Source: Amoebophrya sp. A120 (Eukaryota; Protista; Dinoflagellata). Taken from it: a stretch of 64,000 bases of DNA. The notes below the pieces were generated by a model, which saw only the letters and a list, made by a program, of their open reading frames with translations, did not search any database and was not told where the DNA came from. The stretch is taken from positions 2,060,391 to 2,124,390 of the forward strand of contig CAJINV010000004.1 of the NCBI GenBank assembly GCA_905178155.1, in the 5' to 3' direction. Positions 7,370-63,950 of this stretch are shown here, piece after piece (within the stretch, counting starts at the first letter, position 1; each line of letters opens with the position of its first letter). The position numbers and the translations under genes are program-made.

Positions 7370-7910
7370 TCGGGACGAGCGGTCAGGAATGGAACAACGA
7401 GTAATCAAAGCACAATATCAACTGTAAAAATGTCTGGGTCTGGAAGAATCCAATTTGTCATGCTGGTTTTGGATTGTAAAAAAATCTGTATTGCATGAGC
7501 AGCAAGAAAGAGAGTCCAAGTTTTGCTGCGCTGAAAGAGCATTTGTCATGCGGTATAGGCATCAGGTAGCCCTCGCAAAATCTGTGATGCTAGGGCATGC
7601 ATCACAGACGTCAGGGGTCATGCAAAACATGCATGACAAACCTGGCAATCTTCCAGACCCAGACATTTTTACATTTGATACACAACATCCATTACTTATC
7701 AACAACGTACTACAACAAGACTACAGCGTTAATACTGCTTGCCTCAAAAAAGACGGGTTTTATTGATTGCCACAGGCATCCTTGAATGATCTCTTCGTCG
7801 TTTATTTCTTGATTTCCTCATTCCATTCCCCCTACTTCTACTCGCTCCACAAAGCTGGAGTTCGATGGTCCGTCGTTGCCCCTAGCGCATCCACAAAGCT
7901 GGAGTCGATC
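7370..7910 (-). pseudogene. Degenerate duplicate of the 3' end and downstream flank (8700-8910) of the large secreted-protein gene
   Basis: 7811-7883 matches 8841-8910; 7371-7693 minus the inserted element matches 8702-8754. Confidence 0.8.
7416..7680. mobile_element. Family A TIR element at a non-coding site
   Basis: TIR TATCAAMTGTAAAAATGTCTGGGTCTGGAA; TSD CACAA; empty paralogous site at ~8742. Confidence 0.93.
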
Positions 7911-8847
7911 ATGTTGCTGTCAACTTCCCAAGATCGTATCAAATCAGATTGTTCAGAAAGAACAGTACCAAAATTGTGATTTCACGAATACCTTGCATTG
8001 CGTGTGCGTTTCCTTTTCCAGCTGCTGGCGATACTTTCGGGTATGCAAGAAAAAAGAGAGGTCGTGCACTGAGAGAACTTCTTCTTCTGCCTTACAAGAG
8101 CCCTCTACTACACGGACTCTTAGCTTCTTTCGAATATCGACGAACATGATGATGGATGACGACTCAATAGCACTGCTTCAGTTGTACTGATAGATACTAC
8201 ACAGAAAAATCCAGCGTTTGGAAGTACTTCTACCAGGTACATCTTCATTTCTGGAACGAGAACTAGAACTTACATACTTACTATTCTCTACGGCAGAAGT
8301 TGTTCAACACACCTTCGCGCAGCTGGTTTCTTGCTCGGATACAGGGTGCTTCGCGAAGTTACCCAGTATCGGTTGTAGTGGGCTCGAGGTTGCGGCCTCG
8401 AAGCAGCGCGGACCCAAGAGACAATCGGCCGGTCCGAGGTTCCCGCCGGGCAAAAAAATCGCAAGGACATTATTCATACTGCGCTCTGAACACGGTGCAG
8501 GCGTCCTCTTTAGCTGTTGTAGCCATACGTCGCCTCCAACGCTTCTAAGATAGTCAAACTGTAACGTCGCCCCCTTCTCCGAGAGCCCCGTCGTCTCGTA
8601 GTCTCCACACTGCGGGGAGTACTCTTCGTGCGAGGTGAAAAGTTGTAGCGGTACAGGAGCCTGGTTCGATACTTAATCTGAAGTGGAAGTCTTGTTTCTC
8701 TCGGGACGAGCGGTCAGGAATGGCAAAACGACCAATCAAAGCGCAACATCCATTCAAGGACGTAGTACTGCTTCCCTCAAACAAGAGGGCATTTGATTCA
8801 TCACATTATTGCATTCGTTCTTTGTCGTCTATTTCTACCTGATTTCC

Positions 8848-11800
8848 TCATTGCGTTCCTTCTTCTACTCGCTCCACAAAGCTGGAGTTTGATGTTCCGT
8901 CGTTGCCCCTCTCTCCCACCTCACCTCGTCCTGTAGTACTCAACGTCCCGGTGGAAAAATCCCACCGTGCGCGACTCGTTACCTTCCCGCCACCTCCGAA
9001 CCGCTCCAACACTTCTTGCACATTTCGCACCACATTCTTCCATAAACTTTCCATGCTAGCCCGCACCATGTCCACGAAGTTTCTTCCCAGGTCGTAAAAC
9101 AGCTGCACGCTGTCGTCGAACGCGTTTTGCAGAAATGTTTCCACTTTCTCCAGCAACACCGGGTTCTGAAGCAAAATCGTCACCACGCCCGGTATCAGAA
9201 TGGAAAACGTGACGCCCAAAATCGGCCCGGACAAGCCGCTCGTAGCCACCGCGGCGGAAAGGATGAGCGCGAGGAAGTCGCACACCAGCGCGATCAGACC
9301 GGCCCGGAAGGTTTGCACAATCAGGAACCGAACGGTGCCGGTGAGGGAGTTGGGGGATAATTCTGAAATCGCGGTTTTCAGCTTGGAGTAGATGTTAAAC
9401 TGGTGGAGCGCGGCGAGGTAGTTGGAGAAGGTGGAATTATGGGACGGAATGGGAGGTGTTGTAGTATCATCGGCGGATGTCCCAGTAGTTGTCGTGTTGT
9501 TTTTCATGCTGCTCTTTATTGTTCCTGATGCACGATCTTGTGAAACTGGTAGTGCCGGTAGTTGGTTTTTCCGCAACGTCGACGTTGACTGCTCCACCTC
9601 TGGCTGCTCTTTGCTATGCTCTTTATTCTGTTTGGAGGAAGCGCTACCACTTTCCGCACCAGTTGTATCACTTCTATCGCTAATTGAAGGGCGGGTATCT
9701 CCTTTCGCCCCTTCCGACGAGTCCGCTGGAGATACGTTTCTTGCTCCTGCATCTTCATCCCGTACAACTATCGCTTTTGCCGTGGGACGAGAGGCAGATG
9801 TAGTTGAAACAGGCTTTGACGTTGTCTTAGGCGCGGTTTCATCTTCCTTGTCTCCTTTCCTACTTCTCTGGGAGCTTTTGCTACTTCCAGCACGAGTGGA
9901 AGTAGAACTGGAGCCAGCACTTCGCCGACCGGACTTGCTGCTTCTCGAGGCGGTTTTCCCCGTGTTCTTGCTACCACCTGCCGAACCAGCATCGTCTGGC
10001 TGTGCTTTCGACGAGCTGCTAGTGTTACGCCTACTAGTGGTACTTGCTTTGGAACTCCGATTTCTCGTACTGCTAGAACTCGAACCCTTGCTTGATTCTG
10101 CTGCTGAAGGTTTCTTGGATTTTTTGTTTCTCGAAGTAGTGGCCGCAGAGTTTGAAGTGTTCCCTTTTTTACCTCCAGGTGCTCGTCGCGAACGCGAAGA
10201 TTTCTTGCTCGATTCGTCCGCCTTTCGTCTAGTAGATGCGTTATTTGCTGGTGGCTTCGAGTTATCCCCCTTGCCGCCAGCACGCACAATATCCTCGGCG
10301 TCAGCTTTTGCCAGCATCACCAATCGCAAGTAGGAGGACGGAGAAGTCGTCCACCTCTCGAAAAAATCTTGGGGATAAACAATACTTTCGCTCTTGCGGT
10401 CCTTCCGTTCCAGGAAAGCAGAGCTAGTTGAAACTGCTGCACGATCGCCAGCACGACCAGGAGTAAAGCCATCCTCCCCCGAAGAAGTAGTAGACCGTGC
10501 GTCCAGAAAGTCATCTAGCTCTTCCAGCTCCTTCGTATCCTTCAAATGTTCCAGATTCGCAGCGAGCTTAGCTGAGTCAGAATTTCTTGCAACCTGTTGC
10601 TCTTGTCCCCCTTCCGATTCTTGTCCCGTCCCCTTCGCGGTCGCAGCGGTAGAAGGTGTTCTTGAATCCAGTTGTCGGCTGCTTGTCGATGTAGCAGCAT
10701 GAGGCGAATCTTCTTCTTCCCCCCTTCGCAGCTCCGCGACAATCTTTTCCGCGACGAAATCTTGCTTTTTGAAGAACAGATTCCAGACCAAGTTCACCAT
10801 GGACTGCAGCGCTTTCGCAACAATGCTCTTCGCGAACCGGAAGGTCTCCTCGAAGAACGATTTCATACGCACCAGCTGCTGCAGCGCCGCATCCAGCGCG
10901 GCCCGCAGCACCGGCCCCAGGGCCGCAAAGGACGCGGTGGCCACCGTACCGTGCACAAACCCGGTGGCGCCGGTAATCACCTGCACGCTGTTCACCATCA
11001 GGTTGGCACTGCGCCGCGCGAGGTTGTTTGCCACCTCCGCGCCCATGCCCTGGATCAGGATTCCGCCCGTTTTGTCGACGAAGGACTGCAGTTTGTCGAA
11101 AACAAACTGGCTCGCGTGTTTTAGTGTGGAGACGATCGAAGTTTTGAGCTGCGCCAGGCCATCGGAGGTCGTCAACATTTGCGAGATTTCCTTCGCTTTA
11201 GCGATGCCAGCAGAAAACAGCTGCCTCGCGTTGTCCTGCAGCATTGTCACCGTGGTGAGAAAATTCTGGAAAAACGACTGCTTAGCCGGCGCGTCCGCGT
11301 CCGGTGCGCATTGGTTCGACAGCTTTGGCACCGGTCCATCCGTAATCACGGCGCTCCCCGTCGGCGTCAGTTCAAACTGCGTAGTTATCTCCCCGCTTTG
11401 GAGAAAGGTGGAGTCAATTTTCATCTCAGAAAACGAACTAGAAGTAACTGGCCCCCCCCTCGCAGAATTGGATGTATTTGCATTAGTGGAAGAAGTAGTA
11501 CTAGTGCCAGAACGACCGCCAGCTTCCTCATAGTCACCCACTGCTGGACACTGTTTCTGCCACGTTGGGATGATTCTCCAAACGGCATTGACCGTCAGTT
11601 CCATCCCGCTTTTCGCCACCGTCTGCACTTTTTCCGCGAAATCGTACGCCCTTTCCTTTACAGCGTCTTTCACCAAATTGAAGACCCAGTCGAATGTTTC
11701 CTTCGACTGGGAGATTTTGTTGCCGAGTTTCACGAAAAAGTTCCCAATGTTTTCGTTCGTCAGACACTATGAACTGCAAAAGTATCGTACTCGTGTAACT

Positions 11801-14800
11801 GCATTACAAATTTCCTCAGCATGAGAAATGAAAATTTGTAATGCGGATTTACCTATACCTTGAGAAAAACTTTTGTAATGCATGATTGCAATACGAGTAC
11901 GATACTTTTGCACTGGATAGACACAACGCGTCCACCGCAGCTGCGAACTTTTGCTTCAACAAAACTTCGTTTTCCTTGAGCAAAACCATGATCGCGCCGG
12001 ACACCGCCGCCTCCAGAAACCCGACGATCACCCACTGGACGAGCGGGATGAACGTGAGACCGGAGAGCGCCAACTCCACCATGTTATGCATTGCAAATAT
12101 GTCTGTGCCTGGAAGGATGCAAGAAGGTCTGTCGTGCATATTTCGCATGCTCCCTGATGCCTGTAATGCAGGGCTTAGCGTGACAGATGATGTGTAGAGG
12201 GCTTGCTTCTTTATCTTTATGCCTATTCTGCATGAGAAATGCCCTCTCCGCGTAGCGCAAAGAACTGGACCTCTCTTGCTGGTCATGGTGCAATACAGAT
12301 TTTTTTCGAATCCAGAGACAGCATCACAAGTTGCAACCTTCCAGATCCAGACATATTTGCCGTGGATCCATGTCCGCGAGAAACAAAACGATCCAGGAGA
12401 TCGCAGCTGGGTAAATGTAGGCGTGCCAGTAGTCGGTGATGGAGTTGGAGAGAAACTTTTTGATCTTCCCAAACCCGGCATTCCAAATGTTTTTCACATT
12501 TTGCCACACGGATGCAGTGGAATTTGTGCTTAAGGTTCTGTTCAACTCTAGCTCGTTCTGGAGTTCTTCTTCTCTTGTGAGAATAGATCTACTATACTGA
12601 CCTCCTGCTCCGCGCATCCAATCCGTGAATTTTTCCCACTTCCGCCCGATGTTCTGCCTTGTGTCGGCCAAGAATTTCCTTGTGTTGTCCTTCGCGGCTT
12701 GGAAAGCCGTTGCGGTGTGGTTTTTCGCCTGGTGGTATGCGGAGATCGCGGTATCTTTCCACTCCGCCGTTCTGTTCGCGATCTGGTCGCGCATTTTCTG
12801 CCAGGAGAAGTTGTTTATTACACTATTCTCCGGCAGGAGCCAGGAAGAGAACTTCTTCTGGTTTTGTAGTTGAACTTCCAGCGCCGACGCGGTCCTCGGA
12901 AGGGCTTGATGTGGGCCGGGATCTGTAGTCGTGGTTCTTCGCGAAAAAGGTCGGTGGGAGTCGTGCTCGTAGTCTTTACTTTCCCTACTGAATTTGGCGG
13001 TAACTACAGCAGAAGCACCATCAGGGTGCTGGGCATCATCCACCCTTTGTTGCTCCTGCTTCTCTGCATCGGCGCTCGTCGTGCCGCCCTCGTTATTCAC
13101 AACAACAGCCGTTTTTTCGACAAAACTCGCTCCAATCCGTGTCCCTTCCTGGGCCTTCCCCCCCAACGGTGGGGCTTTCTTAGCGGCAGGAACAAAGGGG
13201 CTCTCGTCCACCGGGTTGAACATCGTTCCAAAGACCGTCGCCGTCTTCCCCCCTCCCTCTTCATCCGCAAGAAAAACCCGGTCCCGGCCCATCCACCCCG
13301 CCTGCATCGACTCGAAGATGGACCGCAAATTTCTTTATCAAATGTAAAAATGTCTGGGTCTGGGAACTTGCGATGCTGGGCGGCGTATCATGATGAGGCT
13401 ACAAATGCTGGCTCAGCATGACAAGTGTCTGAGCTCCTAGGTGTTGCCTATTCTGCATGACAAGCTGCGCTTCTGCATCACAGAAAAACGGAGCTCTTGG
13501 GTAACGTGCATGGCAGTTTTAAGAGTCATGCCAGACAAGCATGACAAATGTTGCATTCTTCCAGACCCAGACATTTTTACATTTGATATCCTTCTCGTGT
13601 AGTCGAAAAACTGCGAAATGAAGTCCAGCGGCGAAAAAACCCGCACCGCCACACTGTTTGCCGTGTCCAAAATCGCTCCGAGCGCGTCCGTATCAAATGT
13701 AAAAATGTCTGGGTCTGGAACATTCTGACACTTGTCATGCACGTTTTGCACCTTGATATTCCCGATTCACACTCGGGGGAACTGGAACTTTCGCGAGACC
13801 AAACGAGATGGCAAGCGAGGTCCGCGCGCCCCCCCTGGAGGTGAGATGCGAGGGTGGCCCTGTATTGTGATCTGCAATCTGCATTAGACCACACAGGAAA
13901 TGAGGAAGTTGGAGAAGGATCCTAGATGATCATGAGCGACACTATGGAACGCTCCAACAACCTCAGCCAACCACTGCCCTCGCATTCACAAGAGACCTGC
14001 CAAGGCAGACTCAACTCCGGAGAATCTTCCCGAAGCCGACCTCTAAGTTCGGCCTGGTCGGCAACGAGGCAATGTCCTCAGGGGCCGTTAGGAACCTCCC
14101 GAAACAACCGTCAACGAGCTCCAGCGCCAGGAAGCCGCTGACGAGAGAAACGCACAGACTGTTCCCAATGGCAAGAACAGAAAGGCAGGGACATAGGTGA
14201 ACCGACAGTGACACCAACTCGACCAAGGTAACCCAGAGTTCCAGACCCGGGGAACACTGGGGACCACGCGGCAGAAGCGCAGCACAAAGACGCCTGAAGT
14301 GTTCCCATGCATGAGCCCTGATGTGTGTGATGCATGCCCTAGTAGCATCACAGATTTTTCCAGAGCCTCTTGATGCCTATTCCGCATGACAAATGCAATG
14401 CCCTCTCCGCGTAGCAAAAATTACATTCCTTTTGGTACTCACGCAATACAGATTTTTTTGGAATCCAAATGCAGCATGACAAGTTGCATTCTTCCAGACC
14501 CAGACATTTTTGCATTTGATAGTCCGGGATGTACACGCGGAACACCAGGCGGAAGACCTCCGGGAGAACGAGCGCCAGCCCGGGTAATATTTGCGCCACG
14601 CCCGGGAGGGTCGCGATGGTCACGGAGGTAAGTTGCGAAAACCAGGCGGCCAGCTTCTCGATGACCATGGTGGCGAACAGGTGGAACCGCTCGCTGCCGA
14701 TCAGAAATTGGAGGAACACATCGCTTATCAAGTGCAAAAATGTCTGGGTCTGGAAACTTGTGATGCTGTGTGGCATATCATGAGGAGGCCACAAGCACAA

Positions 14801-16764
14801 TTGCTGGCTCAGCATGACAAGTTTCTGAGCTTCTAGGTGTTGTTTAATCTGCATGACAAACTACGTTTCTGCATGACAGAAAAGTGGGGCTCTTTGTTAA
14901 TGTGCATGACATCGGTGATCTACGGGCAGGCTGTCCCGGTGGCGCTTTGGCCAATCGTACAGAGAAAAAACAAAAAATAACAACACAAGTTAGGTAGGAA
15001 TACATGTGAAGGTTAAGATTGAAGTCAAAAGTCGTAGAGACATTAATAAAGTAGTTCCTACGGGCATGGTCACGATTGGGCTTTAGTGGGTAGAGCAACG
15101 AATTGTTACACTTCTATCCGCTGGTCAAGTACGAGGAAAACGAGAGCAGCATCGAAGAAGGGAAAGGCGCGCAAGCAGAGCAGCCCAGCAGCAGCAAAAA
15201 ATCAAGACAAGAAGCAGACTACCGCCACCCGGGGTCCTACCCGACCGAAAACTGTACTGGTATGGGCCAACATACCACAAAAGGTACAGAAGCAGGGTAG
15301 GTGCTCGCGTAAAGAGAAAGATGACCAAACCTACAGCGCCCGAGGGTGCATGCTCACCACTGTAGGATAATCTCTTTACCGTCTGCCAGCAGACAAGCTG
15401 CTGAAAAACAAGGAAGTGCAAAGCAAAAAACAGGTTGGAGCCAGCAGGCCAACCGCAACAAGACATCCACCCAAGCGATTGGAACCAGCAGGTCAATCAG
15501 AGCAAAGCAGCAGAGGTCATGCGTCGAGGGCCGGGCACGCGCGAAGAGAAATGCAGCATCTACTTAAACGTTGTGGGTCGTGCAACGAAGGTAGTTCAAC
15601 GGAATCTCAGTGGAGTGATTGACGTAGTTCAACGCATTCACACGAAAGACGTACCGAGTGATAGCGTGCACTTATCATCATGAGAGCGCAGAACTAATCG
15701 CATATAGTGTTTGCTTTTTCGTTGTAACGACAGATTTAAGAGTCATTTTTCGTTGTTAATGTGCATGACAGATTTAAGAGTCATGCCAGACAAGCATGAC
15801 AAACTTGCATTCTTCCAGATCCAGACATTTTTACATTTGATATCGCTGCTGAAAAGCGAAAAGTCACTCGAGAGGGTCAGGTTCGTCCGGTTCGCGATGT
15901 AAAACTGAATTTGCGTTTGGTAGGAGCTATCAAGTGCAAAAATGTCTGGATCTGGAAGAATACAAATTTGTGATGCGCATTTCAGACAACAGAAAAATCT
16001 CTCATGCATAGGCAGCAAAAGTTGCCCACGTTCTGTCACCAAAGTGGGGGATTTGTCACGCGGATTCGGCATTGCGCAAGCTTCTCGAAGCCTGTGATGC
16101 TAGAGCTTCCATGCCAGACCTTCTGTGTCATGCAACAACAGCATGACTCTTCCAGACCCAGACATTTTTGCACTTGGTAGGAACTCATGGTCTGCGACAC
16201 CGCCTCAATCTTCGTGCTCAGCCACTGTCGCTGCGCCTTGTCAGCGATGGTGGAGGAGAGTCCAAGCGTTGCGTTTTTGATGCTGGACACCGTGTCGGAC
16301 GCTTTCGACGCCAAACTCCGAATAGAAGCGGTGGCATAGTTGAAAAAATCGCTTTTCTTCAACATCGTGACCGCTAGCTTGTTTCTTCGCTCGCGTCTCT
16401 TGTTCTCCTGTAACAAGTAGAGGACTGAGCTGGCAGACAATTTTCGGGCTCGTAGTGGTCTCGCATGCAGTTCGTGAGGGTCGTGAGATTTTTGTTCCAA
16501 GGTGGTGTCGCTATATACTACTTCGCGGTGGTCCTCGTCGTGGTTGTGCCTGCTTTCAACTAGAGGCCGTCGCTCCTCCGGTGTGAACGAGGAAAAGCTC
16601 TCCGGAAAAATTTCAGCTGCACTGCTGGCCTCGTCCGCAGCAGCGGTGTCGTGCTCGTAACTGGAATCGCGGGTCCTAGTGGCATCCGCGAAGGTAGGAA
16701 AACTGACGTACAGTTGGAGGTGCAGCAGAACTGCTAATTTCAGCAGTAGTTCACACGGCGACAT
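8848..16764 (-). CDS. ~1665-aa secreted multi-module protein; 7 exons, all 6 introns are TIR elements
   Basis: Signal-peptide-like N-terminus MSPCELLLKLAVLLHLQLYVSFPTFADA; exons 16764-16180, 15922-15843, 14720-14522, 13685-13589, 13330-12369, 12079-11920, 11762-8848 sum to 4998 nt in one frame. Confidence 0.8.
11768..11919. mobile_element. Family H short intronic TIR element
   Basis: TIR TATSMASTGCAAAAGTATCGTACTCGT; TSD GACAC; junction ALCL-TNEN. Confidence 0.9.
12085..12368. mobile_element. Family A intronic TIR element
   Basis: TSD CATGT; junction FLADM-VELAL. Confidence 0.9.
13336..13588. mobile_element. Family A intronic TIR element
   Basis: TSD TTCTT/TCCTT; junction YTRR-NLRS. Confidence 0.9.
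13691..14521. mobile_element. Family A intronic TIR element with nested 557-bp insertion (13751-14307)
   Basis: TSD GTCCG; junction YIPD-ALGA; interior alignable to the 7416 element on both sides of the insert. Confidence 0.88.
14726..15842. mobile_element. Family A intronic TIR element with nested ~0.84-kb insertion
   Basis: TSD TCGCT; junction FSSD-VFLQ; interior alignable to the 58829 element. Confidence 0.88.
15928..16179. mobile_element. Family A intronic TIR element (opposite orientation to 33093/38687/53761)
   Basis: TSD GGAGC/GGAAC; junction MSS-YQTQ. Confidence 0.9.
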
Positions 16765-17036
16765 TTTCCGGCTCAACTTGGGATGATCGCAGGGCCGGCT
16801 CGCTACCTCCGCCGAGGTGGACCAGGGGTCTTTACAGACGATTCATCTTTGCAACCTAACTGACAATTGTAATTCACTTTCACATCGATGTTTTTAGACG
16901 CGAAATAGGATGAAAGAGTGTGGTTGTACACCACCAAATGAAAGGGAGTTTATTCAAAATCAAAAAATAGCCATTTTACAACTTCTGGTCAGAAGTAGGT
17001 ACACTTTTAGTACCAAATATAGCCGCCGGGGCGGGG

Positions 17037-52207: not shown

Positions 52208-55200
52208 TTACAACTCGGTTTTCACCGGACTCGGTGTGCTGGTCATCGCTTCCACCTGCGAAATCTCCTCGGGCAGCCAGTCCAGTTTCACTTTTTTGCT
52301 CGTCTTCGCCACCAACCGCTCCCGGCAGCTCTTCCACACCTGCTCGGAGCACTTCGTTTTCTGCACGTCGGTATGCCTCACAAATGCCGATCTGGCCCTG
52401 GGAGAGGTGCCATTTGTGATGCTAACGAAGTAGATAAGCAGACAAAAAAATCTGTCTTGCCTGAGCAACTGTTATAGGTGCCCACTTTCTCTTAGCAAGC
52501 AAGACAAGTCGAGCTTCTACTCCTACGGTTGCGGGGTTGGACTTCTAGGCATTATTTGAGGCGCTTACTTCGCAACGCCTGCAAAAATGCTTTGCATACA
52601 TTCCCGCTCATGCTCATCTATCTGTGGCAAAAGATGCATGACAAGCAAGTGCACTCTTCTGACCCGGCAGACACATTTGCAGTTGATAGTCGATCAACTT
52701 CGAGATTTTGCCCTTGGAGTATGAGAGTGCACAACGCCCCCTCCCCCTCATTCGTCATGCGAAACCCCAAATATCCAAGCACTTCCCATTGGCACCATTT
52801 GCATGACAGATACCGGAAGCCCAAACAGTACTACACTAGAGCTGCATGAATTTGTCATGCTCAGCCTCCGCGTGTAGTGGTGTTTGTACTGCTGTTCATG
52901 CAATACAAATGAGGAGGAGGGGGAGTTGTGCACTCTCATATGGAGTTCAGGATTTTCGCACACGTGGAGAGCACAGACAGAACCGGCTGCGGCACGTCCG
53001 ATATCCACTGCAAAAGTGATGTCGATTCTAATTGCAACGTTGCATGACAAATCTCGTCGTTTCTATACTGCCATATCAGCAAGACCAGCGTCATGTCGAC
53101 TCTTTTTGAAGATAAAATTTGTGATGCAAGTTATATTACTAAGCGGCACTTTTGCATTGCATATCGGAGTCCTGGACTTGACGGACCTGCTGGTCAAGCC
53201 TGTGTTTCATTGATGAAGAGGTTGTTGATGTAGGTGCTGCAGATATGTCATTGTGCTGCGATGGATCTGTGAACAAATTATGCATGACACTGTGCATAGA
53301 AAGATCATCATCTCGATCTCGAAGATGAAAGGAACTTCTGTATTATACCACTGGTAGCTCTTTTCGTTGAGGCGATCGAATTTGGTCTCCTGGGCCTTGA
53401 TTTTTTCCACCGCGTCTTCGGGCTCGTAGCAGAAGGCCAGGTTGTATCAAATGCAGAAATGTCTGGGTCTGGAAAGTTGTGATGCATGTTAGTGAATAGG
53501 AGACACATTGCAATGCGCCGCCAAGCATGACAGATTTTTCCGTGGCTTTGTGTTGCGTATTCCGCATGAGAAACTGCGTTTTTGCATGACAAACCAGAGG
53601 ACCTCTTGCTGGCCACGCAATACAGGGCTCAGTGTCATGCCAGACTAGCATGACAAATCTCGCACTCTTCCAGACCCAGACATATTTGCAATCCATAGGT
53701 TGAACTGCCGATGCTGCGGGTTCCAGACGGTGTTGCGCACGATGGCCTCCACGACCGGAGTATCAAATGTAAAAGTGTCTGGGTCTGGAAGAGTCATGCT
53801 GTTTTTGCATGACACAGAAGGTCTGGCATGGAAGCTCTAGCATCACAGGTCTCGAAAAGCGTTCGCAATGCCGAATCCGCATGACAAATCCCTGACTTTG
53901 GTGACAGAAAGTGGGCAACTTTTGCTGCCTATGCATGAGAGATTTTTCTGTGTTCTGAAATGCGCATCACAAGTTGCAATCTTCCAGACCCAGACATTTT
54001 TACATTTGATACGGGGGCTGGTAGAGCAATTGCTCGTAGTAGGAAATTATCACTTGGAAAACTGTCGGGGTCAGCGAAGCAGTTCTTGTGTTACCAGTCT
54101 GTGAAAAATGATCATGGGTAGTCGTACACAGACTGCAATAGGCAGCAGAGCATGACGAGTCTTTGCGCTGCTAGTTTATGTGTTGTAGATTCCGCATGGC
54201 AGACTGCGTCTTTCTTGTAACATTCAAGGGGAAGATGGGGATCTACTTTTATTTTCGCGCCTATAATGCATGATCACAGAGCACCAGCGTCAAGTCAGGT
54301 CAGACAGGCACGACAAATCCATTGCAAGCTTCCAGAGGACCTCGACATTATATATGCAATGCATAGAAATGGAATCTGCGAGCGAAAGGCTGACGCGAAA
54401 CCACCCGGGGGGAACAAAAATGATGTCGCCGGGTTCCTGGTTATGACAGTCCACAACTACGCCCCCTCATTTGTATGGTCGATGTTGAACAGCAATACAA
54501 AAACACCAGCACGACGACACGTGAAGCCTGTGCATGACAAGAACTTCATCCGGATCGAGTGTAGTTGTACTGTTTCTCATGCATATATAGTGACACAAGG
54601 GTAGTACTACAACTACACCTGGACCTGGAACTGTCACTGTGGTGTCTTTCGCATGAGAAATGAGAAATGAGAACGAAGTGAGTAGTTGTGCACTCTCATA
54701 CTGGTTCACCTCTATGTACTTCTTCAGCCCAAATTCTTCCTTCAACTCCGGGAGCTTTTCTTCGAAAAACATGTACCTGCAAAATTTTTAAGTAACCGCC
54801 TATGCTGTATGACACTTAGTCGATGACAGTGTCTTTCACTCATGCAGTCGTCACTGCTGCACCACAAATCTTTATAACCACATTGATTCCTATGAATGAA
54901 ATAAGTACGCGCTGGTCTGCTGGAATTCCAGGGCCTCGCGAGCCTTCTCTGCGACCTGCTGGACTTCGTCTTCGGTGACCAAGAGCCAGCGCCGGAAGCC
55001 ATGCAGCAGGACGTCGTAAAACGGCAATCCGTTCTCAGCGTGCAGCTTGTCCCCACTCCCGGACGGCCCAAAGACAAAGTACCGGAAGTCTCCAGCCGCC
55101 TGCTGCTTCAAAAAGTCGCTGCCTGGAGAAGATAAAGATTGATAAATGGTTGCAAAAATAATAAATCGTGAGAATAAATTCTTGGTCGTCGTGTGTCTAT

Positions 55201-57406
55201 CGTGTTGTGATTTTCAGCGAGGTTCATTTACTTCTACGCGGGATCAAAAAAAACTTCTATCTGCTCTACGTCGATCTTATACTTTTCTTTTCAACAAGAA
55301 AAACCTGTCGTACTACTACCGAATAATTCCAAAACCGTCCCCCGGGAGTTGTGATGAATCAGTATTCAAGAAACTGCTCACATGAATCTTCAGAGAGTAC
55401 TACTAACTGAGTACCTTCCTTCTTGCCCAAAATTTTTTGCAGCTCGGAGGCAATAACCGCTGAGGAATTTCCCCCGTCAGGCGTGAAGATCCTCTTCGCC
55501 GCACGCTCCCAGTCGTGAAAAACGTTGTCGACGATGGGCGTTTTGCATCAACTTCAAATAAGCTTACTTCTGGATGGTCTGGCAAATTGGAAGGTTTGTC
55601 ATGGTCGTGCTTAATCCTCTGACAACATGATTCATTCTGAGCGCTGTGATGTTCAGGCATGGGCTCAAAATAAAGAAGCTCTGGCCCGTGCCATGCAAAG
55701 ACGTAGTCTGCCATCTGATGCGGAAAAAAAAATTACACGATAGTACAGTACACAATAAAGAAGTGCTGCATCACCACCTTTCATATAGAGTAGCGTCTAC
55801 ACGAAATGATCCCGAGACGACCGACCAGCCCGAAGAGGAATATTAAGTATTTGCAATTGCATATTTTGGACTTGGGCAGCTTGGTTCGCAACGCGTCCAG
55901 TTCCCCCTCCTTTTCCACCAACTTTCGCGCGCTCAGCGTGTGCTCGCAGTGCTCGGTTGCCTGGCCAGGGATCTTCGGCGCGGCCGGTGAGCCCAGGTAG
56001 CAGTTGGTCAGGTACCGCGAGAAGGGGATCAGGTTCGGCTCCGTGAAATAAATGCGGTTGCCGACCACCTTCTGCCGTGGCTGGTCGGGCGGAAAGTATT
56101 CCAGCACCGTGTTTTTTTCCAGATACTCGTTGGTGGAAAATTGCTCCGCGGTGAACTGCTCGCGCGCTTCCGCAAAGTTCTCGAACAGCGAGGCACCGTA
56201 TGAGCGTGCACAACTCCCGCTCCCCTTCATTTGTAATGCAAAAACGCAGTTCCAGCCACTGCCTCACATCGCTACCTTGCATGACAGACTTGGGAAAAAT
56301 CCAAACAGTACGTATAGTCCGCACGCATATTTGTCATGCAAAAACTACATCTCTGACCTTGTCTCTATTGCTGTTCTTGCCTTCAAATGAGGGGGAGGGG
56401 GGGTTGTGCACTCGGATACACCGTTCTTCACCAGAAAAGGCTTTTGGAACTCCAGTTTCTTGCCGTGCTTTTTCTCGTAGTCCTCCACACTAATCTCCGT
56501 CATCTTGTTCTGCTTCTTGCCCGGCTTGGCGCGCAGCTTCTTCAGCTCCTTCAGCTTGTACTTGCCTGTACTTATTTTTCAAATGTTCAGAAGAAATGGC
56601 ACTAGAATGCTGTGCTGTCCTATGTTCATCTATCCACAGTGCAATGACTTGGTGCTCTCATCATCTCAGCAGTGGAAGACGGAGCGGCAAAATTAACTAA
56701 AGAAACAAGTAGTGGACGAAGCATACAAAAACGCGATATCCATTTTTTCTTTGTTTATCGGAACAACAAATTGCATATCGGAAGATACAAGAATGAAAAG
56801 TACCGACAGTGAACGAGACCGCCTTTTCTTTTTTCACGGTTTCTTTCACCGTTATCCTGAGTAAAAACATCCCCACACCAGAGTCAAGACGGGGATTTTG
56901 CAACACAAGCCTAGAACTTTTGGGGGTCACGCATCACAAGTTGCAGTCCGTAGTGTAGTGCAGGTTCGCAAGGCCAGCTGCATCAGAAATCCATCTGCTT
57001 ATCCTGTTTACAGCATTACAAATTCCAAAACACGACTAAAAATGCCTCTCCTGGCGATGCGCATTGCAAGTGTTCCTGTCGCTGTCATTGGAAATCTGCA
57101 TGACAACTCTGGTGTGGGGACGTTTTTACTCAGGATAACCGTGTTTGCCGCTTCGTTTAGCTTTCTTAGCTGCTCGAGCATGTTGTCCAAAAAAAGGGTC
57201 AAGGACGAGTGCATTTTTTCCTTCTTCGCAAATTCTCCGAGTTGGACGGCTTGCTCTAAAATTTCCGTGGTGTTTTCCTTTTTCCCGACTGTCAATTTCG
57301 CGTGGATGTTGATGCTGTTCTGCGCTTCTACCGCACCGGGGAGCTGCTGGACCAGCGAAGTTGCTGACAGCAAGGTCGCGGTCAGGAAAAATCCTTTCGA
57401 AAACAT
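52208..57406 (-). CDS. Signal-peptide-bearing JmjC-domain protein (JMJD8-like); 10 TIR-element introns plus canonical introns
   Basis: MFSKGFFLTATLLSATS; KPFLVKNG; FVFGPSGSGDKLHAE...LLHGFRRWLL; QEPGDIIFVPPGWFRV. Confidence 0.8.
52372..52688. mobile_element. Decayed family A intronic element
   Basis: TSD GTCGG/GTCGA; junction KLID-VQKT. Confidence 0.72.
52720..52940. mobile_element. Family D intronic TIR element
   Basis: TIR TATGAGAGTGCACAACKCCCCCTCC; TSD TGGAG; junction LNSK-GKIS. Confidence 0.92.
53002..53163. mobile_element. Family H short intronic element
   Basis: TATCCACTGCAAAAGTG...CACTTTTGCATTGCATA; TSD TCCGA/TCGGA; junction QDSD-VPQP. Confidence 0.82.
53445..53697. mobile_element. 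Family A intronic TIR element
   Basis: TSD GGTTG; junction QFNL-AFCY. Confidence 0.92.
53761..54011. mobile_element. Family A intronic TIR element
   Basis: TSD CGGAG/CGGGG; junction YQPP-VVEA. Confidence 0.92.
54048..54365. mobile_element. Decayed family A intronic element
   Basis: TSD GAAAT perfect; junction DSIS-YYEQ. Confidence 0.75.
54442..54700. mobile_element. Decayed family D intronic element
   Basis: TSD CTGGT; junction EVNQ-EPGD restores the JmjC Q.PGD motif. Confidence 0.85.
55546..55863. mobile_element. Decayed family A intronic element
   Basis: TSD TTTTG; junction PKSK-TPIV. Confidence 0.7.
56199..56418. mobile_element. Family D intronic TIR element
   Basis: TSD CACCG; junction VKNG-ASLF. 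Confidence 0.92.
56853..57137. mobile_element. Family B intronic TIR element
   Basis: TSD ACCGT; junction ANTV-KETV. Confidence 0.93.
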
Positions 57407-58739
57407 CTTGTAGTTTGCGGCTCGTGCAGATCTTGAACTACTTTTCATCTTCCACAGGTTTTGGTTTTGCTGGTCTTTCTCCTGCATCATGACCGGGGTC
57501 AGTACTTGTTTTGCCTCTACTTCCACTTCGCCAGTTGTACTGATAAAACTTCTTCGCAGGCCAGTGTCAGCAACTACATGTTGTCCACAACTTCGGAGGT
57601 GACAACATTGTTCAAGCTGATCCTCATCCTGGTCGGGCCAGAACGTCGCATGATCTACTTGCGGTTCTTCATCTTGCACCAGCTCGTCCCCGGCACAGGG
57701 AGGTTGTTGCCTCCAGGAGCTCATCCACATGGTTGTCGTTGCAATATCCTCGTCCCTCAAGAAGTCCTCGCTGCGGCGCGAAAATCCCGGGCGGGACAAC
57801 TACGTTTTTTGATGCGGCTCGCACAACGTTTTTTGATGTCTTTTTGCCGTCTCAGATAATCAATAACGTCTGGTCGTGCTCGCTAGGATGTAAATTTAGT
57901 TATATTGCTTTACTTTGATATTGGTATAGTGATGCGAAAAACGAACTTGATGTGTCGTGCAAATTAGAATGTTAAATTATCAAAGTCTTCATAGTCAAGG
58001 AGGGTAAGAGGTTCTACTTCTGTCGCTAAAAGGGTCGCTGAGCGAAAAACGTTCAGGACCATGCGATATCAAAAACAGAAAAGAGATCGTAGAAAAGGAA
58101 GAACCGAAAATGAAATCTGATCAGGGAACCTTGCAAGAACTACATCAGCGTAACTACATTGCACAATGACCACCTTTTCTTGTCCACTGTCGTACTATCG
58201 ACAAATAGAAATAGTACTATGCCTCGATCCAATTTAAAAATGCAGAGCCAAGGTGCAGCTTCTCGAGAAGAAAGCGTGGTGAAGAATTGCGGCCATTCTA
58301 CTTCTCGCGGCCACGAGATGCAAACCGGGTCCCGGAAAAACGGGGAAGGCGAACACTGGAGTTGCAAAGGCAAAACGCTTTGTCTTGAGATTATTTTTTT
58401 ATTCTTTGGTTCTGAATCTGTACTTCTACTTACTCGTAGTTTTTCTGCCGATTGACTTTTACTCCCAGTTCCTTGCCTCTCTACAAGGAAGAGGCAAAAA
58501 TGTCCCGCAGTTGTGCCAAGCATCAAAGACGAAGATCAGAGATGCGGTTTTGTGTTAAGTAATTTCTTCGAAATCACACGTCGCACATCTGACTGGTGCG
58601 AGAGATCGTGGTCGTTTCTTTATTGCACTGCGAGACACATCTTCACCACCCTGCACTAAATCATCTCCCTTCGCTGGTGCTGGCTCCTCAGGAGGTCGTA
58701 AAAGCTGCTGTAGGACCGATCATCTACAGTAAAACTCAC

Positions 58740-61700
58740 GCACGGCGGTGAGGCCGATCATCTACAACTGCTGCGAAACCTCTCAGAGGCGTCCCTTCGG
58801 CATGAGTACCAGCTGCACCACAATCACATATCAAATGTAAAAATGTCTGGGTCTGGAAACTTGTGATGCTGGGTGGCGTCTTATGATGAGGCCACAAGTG
58901 CTGGCTCAGCATGACAAGTTTCTGAGCTTCTAGGTGTTGCCTATTCTGCATGACAAACTGCGTTTCTGCATCACAGAAAAGTGGGGCTCTTGGGTAACGT
59001 GCATGACAGATTTAACAGTCATGCCAGACAAGCATGACAAACATGCATTCTTCCAGACCCAGACATTTTTACATTTGATATCACAACGCAGAGAATGATT
59101 CCGTACGTTTTCTGGTTCCGGTTGGATTTCTGCGCTTGCGCGATATCCCACGAAAAAACTGTTTCACTGTGATGATTTTGCAAGATCTGCATCACAAGTT
59201 TGTTACACATGCTACTAAAAATTTCTCATGCGCACTTCCCAAGGGAAAACACGCTGGAAAATCCAATGCCTTGCATGTGTAGCAAGACAAATAGTTTTGT
59301 GTTATATTTTCTGCATCACAGGTTCACCGTAAAACAGTTTTTTCTCAGGATACGCGAGTACGGTTGAGTAGTACTGCACTACCTGCTGAAACATCGGCGA
59401 ACGGCTCGCGAACGAAGCCGCGGCACCAGCGGTTCCGTCTTGCGTTCCCTGAAGGTCGTTTTGCTGCTCATCGCCTGCTGTAGCTCGTGCATCATCTTCG
59501 TATCCCCCAGCCATGGTCAAATCGTAGTCGTAGGCCTCTTCCTCGGCGGACCCCTCTTCTTTCGAAGCTGCCGGAACAAGCTTCTTCTGTTTATTCAGAT
59601 TTAATACTTGTTTCCGCTGCCTCACCGGTAGGGAGTCCTGATACTTCTCCTCCTCCGAGACGGATGAGGACATTTTGCCCGAGGAAGAGGAAGATATCGA
59701 AAGGAAAAAACCCCCCTCCCCATATCAAAACGGAATTTCTGATGCTGGATTTGTGTAGACAAATCAGCTTTGTATTGCTGGAAGGCATTGCGGCCAGATT
59801 CCCAGCCTAGGTGGAGGCGTTGGGCTCTAGTTGTTCAGCATGGCAAACGGCTCCGCTTTAGGCCCAACAGCATGACAAATCGCCTCCATAATGGGGCGGA
59901 AGCATCTGCCCTTGTCTTCTTGCAACATAAATGTGATTTGTAACCTCAAATCAGCAACACAAATTTTCGGAAACATGCCTTTTCAATATGGGGAGGGGGG
60001 ATTTTTCTTTACGATAGAAGAGGATGAGGCTTTGTTGCTTTGCGACTCGGGTTCTTTCGAAGACGAGGGATTGGACCCGCGGTGAAACCCCGGCGACAGA
60101 AAAGCGGCGACGAGATTCAGCGGACCTTGGCGCTTCCACCGGGCGAGCCGCTCGCTCGCGGCCGCGGAAAACGAGGAAGTCGAAGACGACCCCGATGACG
60201 TGGAGCGGCCGGGGGGTCGCCGTCCTGCTCTCGCCGAGGACGAGACGGACCGGGTGTCGTCCTGCTCGAAGTAGGCCTCTGGTGCCATGCCTTCTACATC
60301 ATCTTGTTCCTGGTAGTAGGAAAACAACGGGCGTTCTACTTGGTACGCCGGCGGAGCAGTCTCGCCCTCCCGCTCGCGCCGCATCAGCGCCCGCGCCTCC
60401 TGGTCGTCCTGCCGGCGCTGCTTTAACCAGTCCGGCACCACGGTCGCATTGGCCCCGCCGCCGTAGCTGGTTTCCAGAGCCGTCGCCACGCCGGCACCGT
60501 ACTGGCCGCGGGCCGCGTGCAGGAGATCGTCCAGCGACCGTCGCCGGGCAGCTTTGCGCGCCTCCTCGGCCCTGCGCCGCTCCTGCCGCTCGGCCCGCGT
60601 GTTGCGCCACACCACGGACAAGTGGACCGCGACGCCCGGCTTGTTGTCGTAATAGCCACTGTAGCCGTGGCATGATCCTGTGCAAAAGCGATATTATCGC
60701 ACTCGTAGCAATTCTTGCAATTTTTATGCATGACAAATCTTCTTTCTCACCACGACCCTACCCCATCTTTCAAGTTGGAACAATTTGTAATGCAATCTGT
60801 ACTAGTGCGATTTGTTTTATTTGCAATGCATAGGTTGCCGTGCAAATAATTATCCGCGGCGTTGTTGTAGCCGCTGGTGCTGGATCCGGCCAGGAAACCG
60901 CTTAAACTCGGCGTTGCGTTCCCGGATGCTCCAGTAGTATTCTTAACTACCTCCCCGTCCGAGAGCACGCCCTCGTAGACTAGGGGCGCGGTCGACGTTG
61001 TGCCCCCATCCTGGTCCGCGAGGAGTGCTCGCTCCGCGTCGGAACCGCGACCGCTTCCCGCGCGGATCGTGGGCAGGTTACGGAACGACCCCTCGGACAA
61101 CAGCGCTTTGCTTGGTTGATTCACAGCGTCTGTCTTGCTTGTTTGAAAAGCCGGCGAGGATGAAGAAGCTGTGTGCTCTTCTATCCTGTGTAAAAACGCA
61201 CCCACGACCCCAGGGTTGTGTCATACAACAGTGCACCACTAAATATGTCTCTCATGCGCAGCCAAATGCATCTTCTTGGGAAGCGTTTCCTAGGGGAGTC
61301 CTGGAATTTGTCACGCTAAGTATAAAGTGATTTTAAATCACTAGAACTAGATAGAATTAAAGAGATCATTAATTTGTGATGTCGCGGCTGCACAACTAGC
61401 TGAGGATCGCATTTTTACACTACGATCCCAAAATTTTCATGCGCAACATGATATTTTCAAAAAAACCCTCTTCGATTTGTCTAGAAAAATTGCTATCTTG
61501 ACTCCGGGGTCGTGTGGAAATTAGTTTCCACAGCGGGTAGGATCGCCAACATCTTCTACTTCAGCAGCTACTGCTCCATCGCCCTCTTTCGCTGTCCGCG
61601 CAACCAAGAACTCGTTGCCGCTTATTTCCAACTCGGTCGTGGGAACCACAGCTGCGTCCGCTTCTAGAAAACCGCTCTCCAAAATGTTGGAGGACATCAT

Positions 61701-63950
61701 GCCCGATGCGACGCCCGACGCCACACCAGAGTCCAACAGGTCGGTCCGGGAGTCCCGCGTGGATGTGAACCCGTACAACGGTAGGTCCTTGTAGTGCTCC
61801 GTTGTCGTGACGCCTTGGTTGGGCACCCGCTCTATCGTGTGCCCTTTCAGCGTCTCCGTTTTTTTCGCCCCGTGGGCCTTCAGGACCACGTCATGGGGTG
61901 ACTGCGATCGCGGCCGGCTCGTGGAGACGGGGGAGGCGGGGGCTGTCCCGCCGACCGCACCAGCCTTCTTCCTCGCTTCCCGCTGCTCCGGATCTGGAGA
62001 GGAAAAGTACTTAACTCCGGCTGTTCTTCCCCAGTCACGGAACTGGCAGTGTAAGTAGTACTAAAAAATCAGCGTGACTTTTTTATGCAAAAATCAATCT
62101 CGGACGTCGCCGACGTAGTAGTCACGCACGAAAATTTCGCCAAACTGAGCAGATGTGGAATCTACCAGTGCAGGAGTTTCGGAAGTAGATGATGAATGTG
62201 CTTGCAGAAGATGAGTACGCAAGCAAAAATCGCGTCCTGGGGAAGAAGTCCTGGAGTCTCTATTCTTGCACGGGATACATGTCGGTCCTTGCTTTTTTGC
62301 ACCTTCGCTTCTTGACGCCTGATTCATCGATATTGTGGTCAAAATATTAAATTTTCTGATTGAATATTCCACACACCTCCGTTCTTGCGTGTCGTGTGCT
62401 TGCAGGCAAAAATGCAAGTGCCGGCGCTCTTGCAGGAGGAGCTCTACTTGCGCTACTAATTTTCTCTCTTCGAGGGGGAACAAGAACAAACAGAACGGGT
62501 AAAATAAAAAGTACAGAACTTTATTCTACCGCTGCCAGTCCTCCCTGTGCGATTGCGCCGCGCGGGCCTTTTCGTGCGCGACCTGAAACCGCTCCTGGAA
62601 CTTGCGCAGACGTATTACAGTGAAAAATGCCCCCACCCCCACAGTTGTAAGAATTTGTCATGCTAAGTTTCCAGATGAAAACTTTTTGTCATGCATGAAA
62701 GAAGTATGAATCTTTCTGATGCAGAGTAAAGTCGTATATCGCATCGCTTGCATGACAAGCGCCGCTCTTGCTGGGATCTTTTGCAATACAAATTTTTGCT
62801 ATTCACGATTGGAAATCTGTGATGCTGCTAGGTGCAAGAGGGCGAATGTTTCTTTTGGAAAGGTTTGCAATACAAATGCTCCCAAGTTCGGGGGTGGGGG
62901 CATTTTTTATTGTAATAAGACGCTTGAAGAGTTCGTAGACCGCCTCAAAGTCCTCCAACAGGTCCAGCACCGTGTCCTTGTGCGGACGGCTGCCTTTCTA
63001 TGAGAGTGCACAACTCCCCCTCCCCCTCATCTGTCATGCAAAATACCCAATCCACCCTCTACCTCTTGGCACTGTTTGCATGACAAGCTCTGGTAGCCCA
63101 AATAGCACTACACTCCAGTGCAAATTTGTCATGCAAAACCGGCATTCTTGCTGATGGCCGCTTGTAATGCCGTTTACACTACACAAACGAGGGGGAGGGG
63201 GGGTTGTGCACTGTCATACTTTCGGCATGTGCTTGTAGCCCTTTTCGATCATGGTTCGGGTGACGCCGTTCTCCGTGTCTAGCAGCATATCCTGTGTTAA
63301 AACGTCTCCACCCGCCCAGAGCTGTCATGCAAATCTGCATGCCAAAAAAAATTCTCAAGCGGAGCCCCGTGAGACGCATTTCCTCGTCGTTTTTTGGAAT
63401 TTGTGATGCTCGAATCAGCATGATGTGCTAGATCTGTGATGCTGCTGAACTACCTATAGTATAGGTATAATTATACAATACGAAGACAATAAATTTGTCA
63501 CGCGAACCAACCAAAGCAGGCTGATTTGTCTAGCAGATTTCCCATCAACATCTTGACTCTGGTGTGAGGACGTTTTTACTCAGGATACAGCATCGCACGA
63601 ATCTCCTCCTCCGTCTTGGAGCTCGAAAACGGCGTCAGCAGCACCGGCATCAGGTTTCGTTTCAGCAGTTTTTCGCACAGCTCGCCCGTCTTCGTTCTGA
63701 AGTCGTTGGTCACCGCTACCAGCTGGGGCAGGAATTCCTGCGACGTCGATGCCGCTTTGTCTTCGGCGTCCAAGGCCTCGACACTGCGAGCCGCGGAGGA
63801 GAGTTCCGCCTCCTTGGCCTTCGCGAACTCAGCCACGTCGTCCGCATCGTCTACGGACTTGAAGGCTTCCAACTTTTCCACAATTTGCCGCAAGCTCTGC
63901 AGGTCCGCGCCGGCCTTCCGGGCGTTCGTAACCGTTGGAAGTAGGGACAT
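58740..63950 (-). CDS. Large multi-exon protein (or two genes), low-complexity, with a hydrophobic segment near the C-terminus; 8 TIR-element introns
   Basis: In-frame joins RAML-LDTE, HMPK-GSRP, FKRL-RKFQ, HGNH-GYSG, TVLA-QAQK, ILCVV-IVVQL; continuity across 62050-62530 and both ends uncertain. Confidence 0.6.
58829..59080. mobile_element. Family A intronic TIR element
   Basis: TSD TCACA; close relative of 13336. Confidence 0.93.
59144..59352. mobile_element. Family G intronic TIR element
   Basis: TATCCCACGAAAAAACTGTTT...AAACAGTTTTTTCTCAGGATA; TSD CGCGA. Confidence 0.87.
59695..60016. mobile_element. Family C intronic TIR element
   Basis: TSD GAAGA. Confidence 0.92.
60674..60832. mobile_element. 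Decayed family H intronic element
   Basis: Residual TIR and internal motifs; TSD 2/5; frame restored. Confidence 0.62.
61182..61539. mobile_element. Decayed family B-like intronic element
   Basis: Left TIR TATCCTGTGTAAAAACGCACCCAC intact, right end eroded; frame restored with the 5-nt rule. Confidence 0.65.
62613..62917. mobile_element. Family F intronic TIR element
   Basis: TATTACAGTGAAAAATGCCCCCACCCCC...GGGGGTGGGGGCATTTTTTATTGTAATA; TSD AGACG. Confidence 0.92.
62999..63218. mobile_element. Family D intronic TIR element
   Basis: TSD CTTTC. Confidence 0.93.
63288..63587. mobile_element. Family B intronic TIR element
   Basis: TSD CAGCA. Confidence 0.92.

What the first reader, a model, noticed from the sequence alone, without database searches (positions are those of the whole stretch)
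7416..63587. One geometric rule for non-canonical transposon-introns: TA...TA element plus one 5-bp TSD is removed, regardless of junction sequence
Seen: 49 elements in ~9 TIR families, 48 inside coding exons. Each is bounded by TA...TA (a few mutated) and a 5-bp direct repeat of arbitrary sequence (CGAAG, TCTTG, GCACG, GAGAG, AGACG...). Deleting the element plus one repeat gives an open frame at the coding sites traced, and for most no register within the repeat yields GT-AG. Established: inverted-repeat/direct-repeat-flanked introner elements with non-canonical ends were reported in Amoebophrya (Farhat et al. 2021), with the splicing mechanism unresolved, so the class itself is not new. Inference: the boundary is set by structure (TIR hairpin plus a fixed 5-nt offset), implying a second splicing pathway, or DNA-level excision, running alongside GT-AG splicing in the same genes.
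Basis: partly seen in the sequence, partly recalled or inferred. Interest (0 to 1): 0.9.

Follow-up and report, generated by a model that had tools for sequence, protein, structure and literature searches.

The report
Transposon introns cut by fixed ruler
In this marine parasite, dozens of small transposons sitting inside genes are removed from the RNA together with exactly five flanking letters, whatever those letters are, and the junctions that can be read put the cuts one letter before and four letters after the element, which likely means its splicing machinery measures from short signals in the transposon ends instead of reading the usual GT-AG signals.

Summary
Confirmed and sharpened. 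The window (Amoebophrya A120 by protein hits) holds 50 TIR elements with a 5-bp TSD, 49 in coding exons. RNA contigs (one sample) show or fit removal of element+5 nt at 27; only 1 of 50 could be GT-AG. Mismatched TSD copies fix the cut: all 12 informative junctions fit one polar register, 1 nt before the 5' TA and 4 nt after the 3' TA (N|TA..TA NNNN). This puts the TIR's TA at intron +2/+3, as in the host's GTA donors (22 of 23). Across 324 oriented elements (window plus a related genome) the 5' TA is mutated 2 times, the 3' TA 15 times; the A at -7 is also retained. The hairpin looks dispensable (no G-U excess; precise removal with little predicted pairing), nearby CAGs are skipped, and DNA contigs keep the elements. 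So 'structure sets the boundary' and 'DNA excision' are not supported. Best reading (inferred): a relaxed U2-type spliceosome using TIR-borne end signals. The class and a 5-bp repeat are published (Farhat 2021); I found no published register. The scan noted like elements on other dinoflagellate DNA.

The parts
7416..7680 (.). Family A element, TSD CACAA/CACAA, non-coding; empty-site paralogue near 8733
11768..11919 (-). element, perfect TSD
   Evidence: ORF restored
12085..12368 (-). element, perfect TSD; only one whose transcript-5' TA is mutated (+2 = G), still spliced
   Evidence: joint skips 289 = 284+5 in one low-depth contig
13336..13588 (-). element, TSD 4/5
   Evidence: ORF restored
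13691..14521 (-). family A element with ~557-nt internal insert, perfect TSD
14726..15842 (-). family A element with ~845-nt internal insert, perfect TSD
15928..16179 (-). element, TSD 4/5
21756..21982 (-). old element, TSD 2/5; register 2-4; intron GT..CG
   Evidence: joint 21751->21984 skips 232 in 4 of 4 runs
22060..22173 (-). old element, TSD 2/5; register 4-5; intron AT..CC
   Evidence: joint skips 119 in 4 of 4 runs
22364..22528 (-). old element, TSD 3/5; register 4-5; intron TT..GT
   Evidence: joint skips 170 in 4 of 4 runs
24276..24555 (-). element in ribosomal protein uS5/RPS2 gene
25812..26090 (-). element in uS5/RPS2 gene
32718..32999 (-). element in polycystin-channel gene; the only one that can read GT-AG, and only at register 4
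33093..33344 (-). element, TSD 4/5
34444..34706 (-). element, perfect TSD
37799..38077 (-). element in ankyrin/WW gene
   Evidence: junction peptide in P0001
38687..38938 (-). element
   Evidence: P0001
38991..39311 (-). element
   Evidence: P0001
39902..40060 (-). old element, TSD 2/5; register >=2
   Evidence: P0001
41460..41784 (-). old element, TSD 3/5; register >=3
   Evidence: P0001
41823..42146 (-). element
   Evidence: P0001
42678..42972 (-). element, TSD 4/5; register >=1
   Evidence: P0001
43282..43534 (-). element
   Evidence: P0001
44987..45260 (-). old element, TSD 2/5; register >=3, also by the A25 orthologue residue
   Evidence: P0001 and P0002
46370..46639 (-). element; GTA donor with a CAG one base beyond the cut that is not used
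   Evidence: RNA contig length
46703..46960 (-). element, 3' TA mutated
47242..47495 (-). element, TSD 4/5
47711..48038 (-). old element, TSD 4/5
48095..48349 (-). element
49985..50306 (-). element (segment length has 7 nt unexplained)
50669..50982 (-). element, TSD 3/5, 3' TA mutated; register >=2
52372..52688 (-). old element, almost no predicted arm pairing; register >=1
52720..52940 (-). element
   Evidence: RNA length and P0004
53002..53163 (-). element, TSD 4/5
53445..53697 (-). element
53761..54011 (-). element, TSD 4/5
54048..54365 (-). old element, perfect TSD, little predicted arm pairing
54442..54700 (-). element; GTA donor with a CAG one base beyond the cut that is not used
55546..55863 (-). 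old element, perfect TSD, 3' TA mutated
56199..56418 (-). element
56853..57137 (-). element
58829..59080 (-). element
   Evidence: 396 = 396 nt length match
59144..59352 (-). element
59695..60016 (-). element
60674..60832 (-). old element, TSD 2/5, 3' TA mutated; register >=3
   Evidence: P0003
61182..61539 (-). old element, TSD 2/5; register exactly 4; intron CT..AG
   Evidence: contig ends 61541 and 61177; P0003 reads DQ
61993..62277 (-). old element, TSD 2/5, decayed 3' arm; register 4-5; skips CAG at -5 and +6
62613..62917 (-). element
62999..63218 (-). element
63288..63587 (-). element
2071..62529 (-). 24 ordinary GT-AG introns in the same genes (23 tabulated: GT 23/23, +3 A 22/23, CAG 23/23), used as the comparison set

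Best explanation
These are non-autonomous TIR transposons with a 5-bp target duplication that are removed from pre-mRNA as N-TA...TA-NNNN (one duplication base on the 5' side, four on the 3' side at every junction that can be read), likely by a relaxed U2-type spliceosome that would read the element's own U+2/A+3 as the donor and set the 3' cut seven bases from a retained A, ignoring G+1 and the terminal AG. Shown: element+5 removal, RNA level, polarity, junction independence, selection on the 5' TA. Inferred: that register 4 holds for elements with perfect TSDs, that the spliceosome does it, that A-7 is the branch point. Because both TIR arms carry TAT, either insertion orientation presents the same signals, so any 5-bp site becomes a frame-neutral intron.
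For: Joints skip exactly element+5 at 4 elements; contig lengths fit at 23 more. Register brackets: 21756 {2-4}, 22060, 22364, 61993 {4,5}, 61182 {4}, seven more with lower bounds only; only 4 fits all. Register 4 matches 27 of 28 junction peptides in three database proteins, register 5 26, register 3 25, register 0 19. At register 4: +1 G14/C16/A14/T5, +2 T 48/49, +3 A 49/49, -7 A 49/49; host donors GTA 22/23. In 324 oriented elements 5' TA mutated 2, 3' TA 15 (p=0.002); third position 13 (5') vs 3 (3', = A-7), p=0.02, with no strand bias in mutation (T>C 36, A>G 34, C>T 28, G>A 25). Families insert in both orientations (47:36, 22:13, 20:12, 15:14). Near-complete U2 spliceosome with U1 undetected (PMC7789003); U2 spliceosome handles non-GT/AG introns in Fritillaria (PMC13326754); fixed branch point at -8 in Entamoeba invadens (bioRxiv 2022.06.08.495308).
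Against: No lariat, branch or snRNP data. The upper bound on the register rests on 2 junctions, the lower on 4, all from one RNA sample; database proteins are gene models and not independent of such RNA. Ordinary introns here stay strict (G+1 and CAG 23/23) while elements show no drift toward GT or AG and skip adjacent CAGs, so two recognition modes must coexist. 12085 is spliced with G at +2 (one low-depth contig). No shared branch motif around A-7 (U at -9 in 29 of 49); the A-7 test is one of three and post hoc. In young elements the TIR stem would bury the donor. TIR positions 12-13 are retained in both arms (11/1060 vs 130/4028), which a donor-only model does not explain. A DNA-only register test on TSD mismatches was uninformative.
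Confidence: 0.5

Rival explanations
1. A separate, non-spliceosomal RNA cut-and-join pathway (Euglena-like) recognises motifs in both TIR arms, perhaps through a TIR-binding or transposase-derived protein, and cuts at fixed 1 and 4 nt offsets.
For: Junction bases are free; CAG one base away is ignored even behind a GTA donor (46370, 54442); ordinary introns remain strict; positions 12-13 retained in both arms; a GCATGACAA-type motif is ~20-fold enriched in 48 of 49 window and 274 of 275 related elements, weakly in ordinary introns; Euglena has an analogous offset code (PMC12501133).
Against: Of six registers the one used is the one that recreates the host donor at +2/+3; selection is stronger on the 5' TA than on its pairing partner; no enzyme identified.
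Confidence: 0.3
2. One reading: the TIR hairpin itself juxtaposes the ends and a structure-guided nuclease/ligase cuts at a fixed offset from the stem.
For: Most elements fold end-to-end (mean 13 of 20 arm pairs).
Against: G-U 234 vs A-C 238; sense = antisense pairing, p=0.35; 5 of 27 RNA-supported elements have <5 predicted arm pairs yet are cut exactly; the 3' TA decays at about the background rate. Caveat: 37 C equilibrium folding.
Confidence: 0.12
3. DNA-level precise excision (IES-like) in the transcribed nucleus.
For: TA-bounded TIR elements in coding exons; only one DNA run was laid.
Against: DNA contigs of X1 span 9 elements unbroken at 41-47x like their flanks; RNA runs hold both forms (unspliced contig depth 4.7 vs 149.5 spliced at 52372); register is asymmetric and polar to transcription. 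594 joint rows were hidden and other life stages were not seen.
Confidence: 0.04
4. Reverse-transcriptase template switching across hairpin and direct repeat makes false introns.
For: Direct repeats plus hairpins are the known recipe (recalled).
Against: Exact removal with only 0-2 shared bases; same contig depth as GT-AG joints; needed for uS5, polycystin and for alignment to the A25 orthologue.
Confidence: 0.02

Closest known systems
Amoebophrya A120/A25 introner elements and non-canonical introns (Farhat et al. 2021, PMC7789003)
   Same: Same organism by protein hits; IR starting TAT...AAA, direct repeats at the borders (5-bp example in Fig. S19 legend), RNA-supported non-canonical junctions, mixed with GT-AG introns.
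   Different: The paper gives repeats of 3-5 nt, 'no clear splicing signature', splice sites 'variable' relative to the hairpin and border 'unknown'. Here one TSD length and one polar 1+4 register fit all families, with selection on U+2/A+3/A-7 and little need for the hairpin. Its figures could not be seen and may show part of this offset.
Amoebophrya A120 introner families in Gozashti et al. 2025 (PMC12130899, Dataset S2)
   Same: Classed as TIR DNA elements of unknown family with mixed splice sites.
   Different: In the 22 of 58 A120 rows seen, TSD calls are 2-5 nt or NA and mechanisms are mixed (co-opt both / 5' / 3'), i.e. no unified register.
Fritillaria borealis MITE-derived non-canonical introns (Henriet 2019, not held; PMC13326754; review PMC11282704)
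   Same: TIR/TSD transposons removed by a U2-type spliceosome without GT/AG.
   Different: There the ends have preferred dinucleotides (AG-AC, AG-AT) and U2AF is duplicated; here +1 and the last four bases are free and U2AF is listed single-copy.
Euglenid nonconventional introns (PMC12501133; review PMC11282704)
   Same: Co-dominant non-GT/AG class, inverted repeats set in from the ends by unequal offsets, direct repeats, probable MITE origin.
   Different: Signature N3CDG...CHGN5-6|R and base pairing, circular products; here N-TA...TA-N4, no exon base preference, no sign of selection on pairing.
Micromonas/Aureococcus introners (review PMC11282704)
   Same: Element supplies part of the signal, TSD the rest; frame-neutral removal.
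   Different: They need a canonical dinucleotide in the TSD; these do not.

Membership tests
Amoebophrya A120 introner elements | Terminal IR starting TAT, later A-run | tested here: met
   TAT at 91/94 per position, A-run at 11-15
Amoebophrya A120 introner elements | 3-5 nt direct repeat at the borders | tested here: met
   5 bp specifically
Amoebophrya A120 introner elements | Repeated families, removed from RNA, non-GT-AG ends | tested here: met
MITE / non-autonomous TIR DNA transposon | TIR, fixed-length TSD, short, multi-copy, empty site | tested here: met
MITE / non-autonomous TIR DNA transposon | Cognate transposase with the same ends | tested here: inconclusive
   None in 8 insert ORFs or 612 kb of related loci; no whole genome held
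U2-type spliceosomal intron | GT/GC...AG ends | tested here: not met
   1 of 49 possible in any register
U2-type spliceosomal intron | Donor U+2 and host-type A+3 | tested here: met
   48/49 and 49/49; purifying asymmetry p=0.002
U2-type spliceosomal intron | Branch-point A and lariat | not testable with these tools
   A-7 retained is only a candidate
U2-type spliceosomal intron | Dependence on U2/U5/U6 snRNPs | not testable with these tools
   needs knock-down
Euglenid nonconventional intron | N3CDG...CHGN5-6|R signature | tested here: not met
   +4 is T in 46/49; no exon base preference
Euglenid nonconventional intron | End-to-end base pairing under selection | tested here: not met
   G-U = A-C, sense = antisense
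Euglenid nonconventional intron | Circular excised RNA | not testable with these tools
   contigs only
Ciliate-type IES (DNA excision) | Element absent from expressed DNA | tested here: not met
   9 elements spanned by DNA contigs at flank depth; one run only

The most novel reading that the evidence does not exclude
Amoebophrya splices most of its introns by a code in which no terminal dinucleotide is read: a symmetric transposon end (TAT...AA) is both the transposition signal and the splice signal, cuts fall at fixed +1/-4 distances, and a dedicated machine (a re-tooled, U1-less spliceosome branching at A-7, or a transposase-derived RNA pathway) makes every insertion at any 5-bp site, in either orientation, a scarless intron.
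Probability: 0.55. Interest if true: 0.85.

Novelty: new variant of a known kind. Interest (0 to 1): 0.7.

Why it matters
About 65% of A120 introns are non-canonical with an unresolved mechanism and border (PMC7789003). A single register turns that into concrete tests (5' end one base before TA, branch at A-7, mutations at +2/+3/-7), explains why aligners scatter these junctions over many dinucleotide classes, gives a rule for annotating them, and shows how a host can make a transposon family harmless at any coding site. A sequence-independent, scarless intron would also be a useful engineering part.

Tried and rejected
No whole genome held. Brute-force intron enumeration gave too many solutions. 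DNA-only register inference from 68 TSD mismatches in related loci was uninformative, and showed no drift to G+1 or AG. Farhat Table S4: all nine top A120 classes are NT-NN, but eight are also NN-AN and annotations mix registers, so I do not count it as independent for A120; the nine A25 classes are all TT-NN, which is polar and compatible with U+2/A+3. Search for an autonomous element: a 6.2-kb candidate in L049 was a false pairing; insert ORFs had no Pfam hit. The viral-contig hit L145 is a chance match in a phage. Rfam: 0 hits. Protein-representative search gave only a low-complexity hit, leaving 7 nt in segment 49128-50983 unexplained. No branch motif seen in 23 ordinary introns. Rows dropped: of 489 elements called in related loci, 473 had full flanks and 275 passed orientation thresholds; one (M41) is mis-bounded, and without it the third-position count is 12 vs 2. 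The orientation model was trained on this window, so its 45/45 check there is optimistic.
Full report
Setting. All genes traced lie on the minus strand. Exon queries return Amoebophrya sp. A120 proteins at 98-100% and an A25 orthologue. Hosts include uS5/RPS2, a polycystin channel, an ankyrin/WW protein and a JmjC protein. No whole genome was held.

Observation. I delimited 50 elements, 14.5 kb of the window; 49 are in coding exons. Both ends are TA in 42; TSD identity is 5/5 in 30, 4/5 in 10, 3/5 in 3, 2/5 in 7. Without imposing a repeat length, strong TAT..ATA pairs carry a perfect repeat at length 5 in 19 of 31 cases and at other lengths in 0-3; 5 shuffles give none. A metagenome scan for the commonest TIR returned loci of a related genome (612 kb after merging), where 298 of 486 such pairs have the 5-bp repeat and 489 elements were called. 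TSD composition equals phase-matched coding sequence at 323 sites. Element 7416 has an empty-site paralogue near 8733.

Removal from RNA. Four contig sets guessed to be RNA, from one sample, show joints skipping exactly element+5 at 21756, 22060 and 22364 (4 of 4 runs) and 12085 (1 run), beside GT-AG controls. For 23 more, contig coordinates balance exactly: 396=396 for three elements; 191, 127 and 441 nt in the JmjC gene with introns of 238, 292, 149 and 132 nt; 595 nt with introns of 211, 148 and 180; 259 nt with one of 211. Two of these balances led me to elements I had missed. One segment (49128-50983) leaves 7 nt unexplained. The 10-element JmjC model is identical to P0004. DNA contigs of X1 cross 9 elements unbroken at 41-47x, and an unspliced RNA contig at 52372 has depth 4.7 against 149.5 spliced; 594 joint rows were hidden, and only one DNA run was laid.

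Register. Where the two TSD copies differ, the mRNA base tells where the cut falls. With r = bases kept from the upstream copy: 21756 r 2-4; 22060 and 22364 r 4-5; 61993 r 4-5; 61182 r = 4 (contig ends; P0003 reads DQ); 60674, 44987, 41460 r>=3; 39902, 50669 r>=2; 42678, 52372 r>=1. Only r = 4 fits all 12. It matches 27 of 28 junction peptides in three database proteins (the miss, 58829, is where P0003 takes another C-terminus); these are gene models, not independent data. The intron is therefore N-TA...TA-NNNN. The upper bound rests on two junctions. The only element that could be GT-AG is so at r = 4.

What is under selection. At r = 4, +1 is any base, +2 T 48/49, +3 A 49/49, -7 A 49/49; the 23 ordinary introns have GT 23/23, +3 A 22/23, CAG 23/23. 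In 324 oriented elements (49 window, 275 related) the 5' TA is mutated 2 times and its mirror 15 (p=0.002), near the 2.3-3.0% background; the third base 13 vs 3 (p=0.02, uncorrected), so A-7 is kept and T+4 is not; the trend holds at other thresholds. Mutation shows no strand bias. Pairing shows no selection: G-U 234, A-C 238; sense and antisense equal; 5 of 27 RNA-supported elements have under 5 predicted arm pairs. CAGs one base beyond the cut behind a GTA donor (46370, 54442) or at -5/+6 (61993) are not used. Against a donor-only view: positions 12-13 are retained in both arms (11/1060 vs 130/4028, p=3e-5, post hoc), 12085 is spliced with G+2, and there is no drift to GT or AG. A GCATGACAA-type motif is about 20-fold enriched in nearly all elements, in both orientations; transposase-binding repeat or splicing-factor site is open.

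Mechanism. Mobility: non-autonomous TIR elements with a 5-bp staggered insertion; the enzyme was not found. An A120 TIR family with Copia/Gypsy-like ORFs is reported (PMC12130899); that Copia integrases make 5-bp TSDs and some have TA..TA ends is recalled, not tested. Removal: RNA-level, polar, measured from the TIR ends (shown). I put 0.5 on a relaxed U2-type spliceosome (donor N-UA, branch A-7, no G+1/AG check), 0.3 on a separate motif-guided pathway, 0.12 on a hairpin-guided one, 0.04 on DNA excision, 0.02 on artefact.

Literature seen. PMC7789003: abstract, passages, sections 11-12, supplement passages and parts 3-4; figures not visible. [quoted passage not shown] PMC12130899: passages, section 6, 22 of 58 A120 dataset rows, two supplement files unsearched. 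PMC11282704, PMC12501133, bioRxiv 2022.06.08.495308: passages. PMC13326754: abstract, introduction, discussion part 1. PMC13149111: term search, no hits. Henriet 2019 not held; Roy 2023 not read. Searches found no paper giving a fixed register or nucleotide code for these introns; subscription papers and bioRxiv supplements were not covered. Two earlier scan notes report element-plus-TSD removal in other dinoflagellates (unchecked).

Verdict. Real; class known; the single polar 1+4 rule and the nucleotide-level selection are the new part. New variant of a known kind; interest 0.7.

Noticed in passing
window 17010-17743: GC-rich intergenic repeat with sub-terminal inverted repeat, TA at both ends but no 5-bp TSD; 87% identical full-length copy in L050 1120-1854; several variant RNA contigs lay on it. 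A different, unclassified mobile element.
   Followed up: partly
window 13750-14307 and 14912-15756: Inserts inside family A elements (the second flanked by a 16-nt direct repeat); variant RNA contigs show they are multi-copy; no Pfam hit; no match in related loci.
   Followed up: partly
window 49130-49558: RNA contig length needs 7 nt more removed than my GT-AG model; a GG..AG intron flanked by a 5-nt direct repeat without TA ends would fit; alternatively a decayed element ending at 49593.
   Followed up: partly
window 38151-38320: GT-AG intron with TA near both ends and element-type internal motifs; may be an old element turned canonical.
   Followed up: no
related loci L001-L144: Intron phase 0 at register 4 is enriched (124 of 275, p=2e-4) but not in the window (18 of 48).
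   Followed up: no
window 7335-7883 and 8668-8910; 5240-5364 and 5585-5709; 28376-28589, 28743-28874, 29809-29907: Local duplications of non-coding or partial gene sequence.
   Followed up: no
window 27505-28105: Low-complexity tandem repeats in a long minus-strand frame (GTAST-like units).
   Followed up: no
window 1238-3898: UPF1-like SF1 helicase gene with two GT-AG introns and no elements.
   Followed up: no
PMC7789003 Table S6: A120 lists two SF1 (branch-point binding protein) genes against one in A25, single Prp8 and U2AF subunits: a candidate for element-specific 3' recognition.
   Followed up: no
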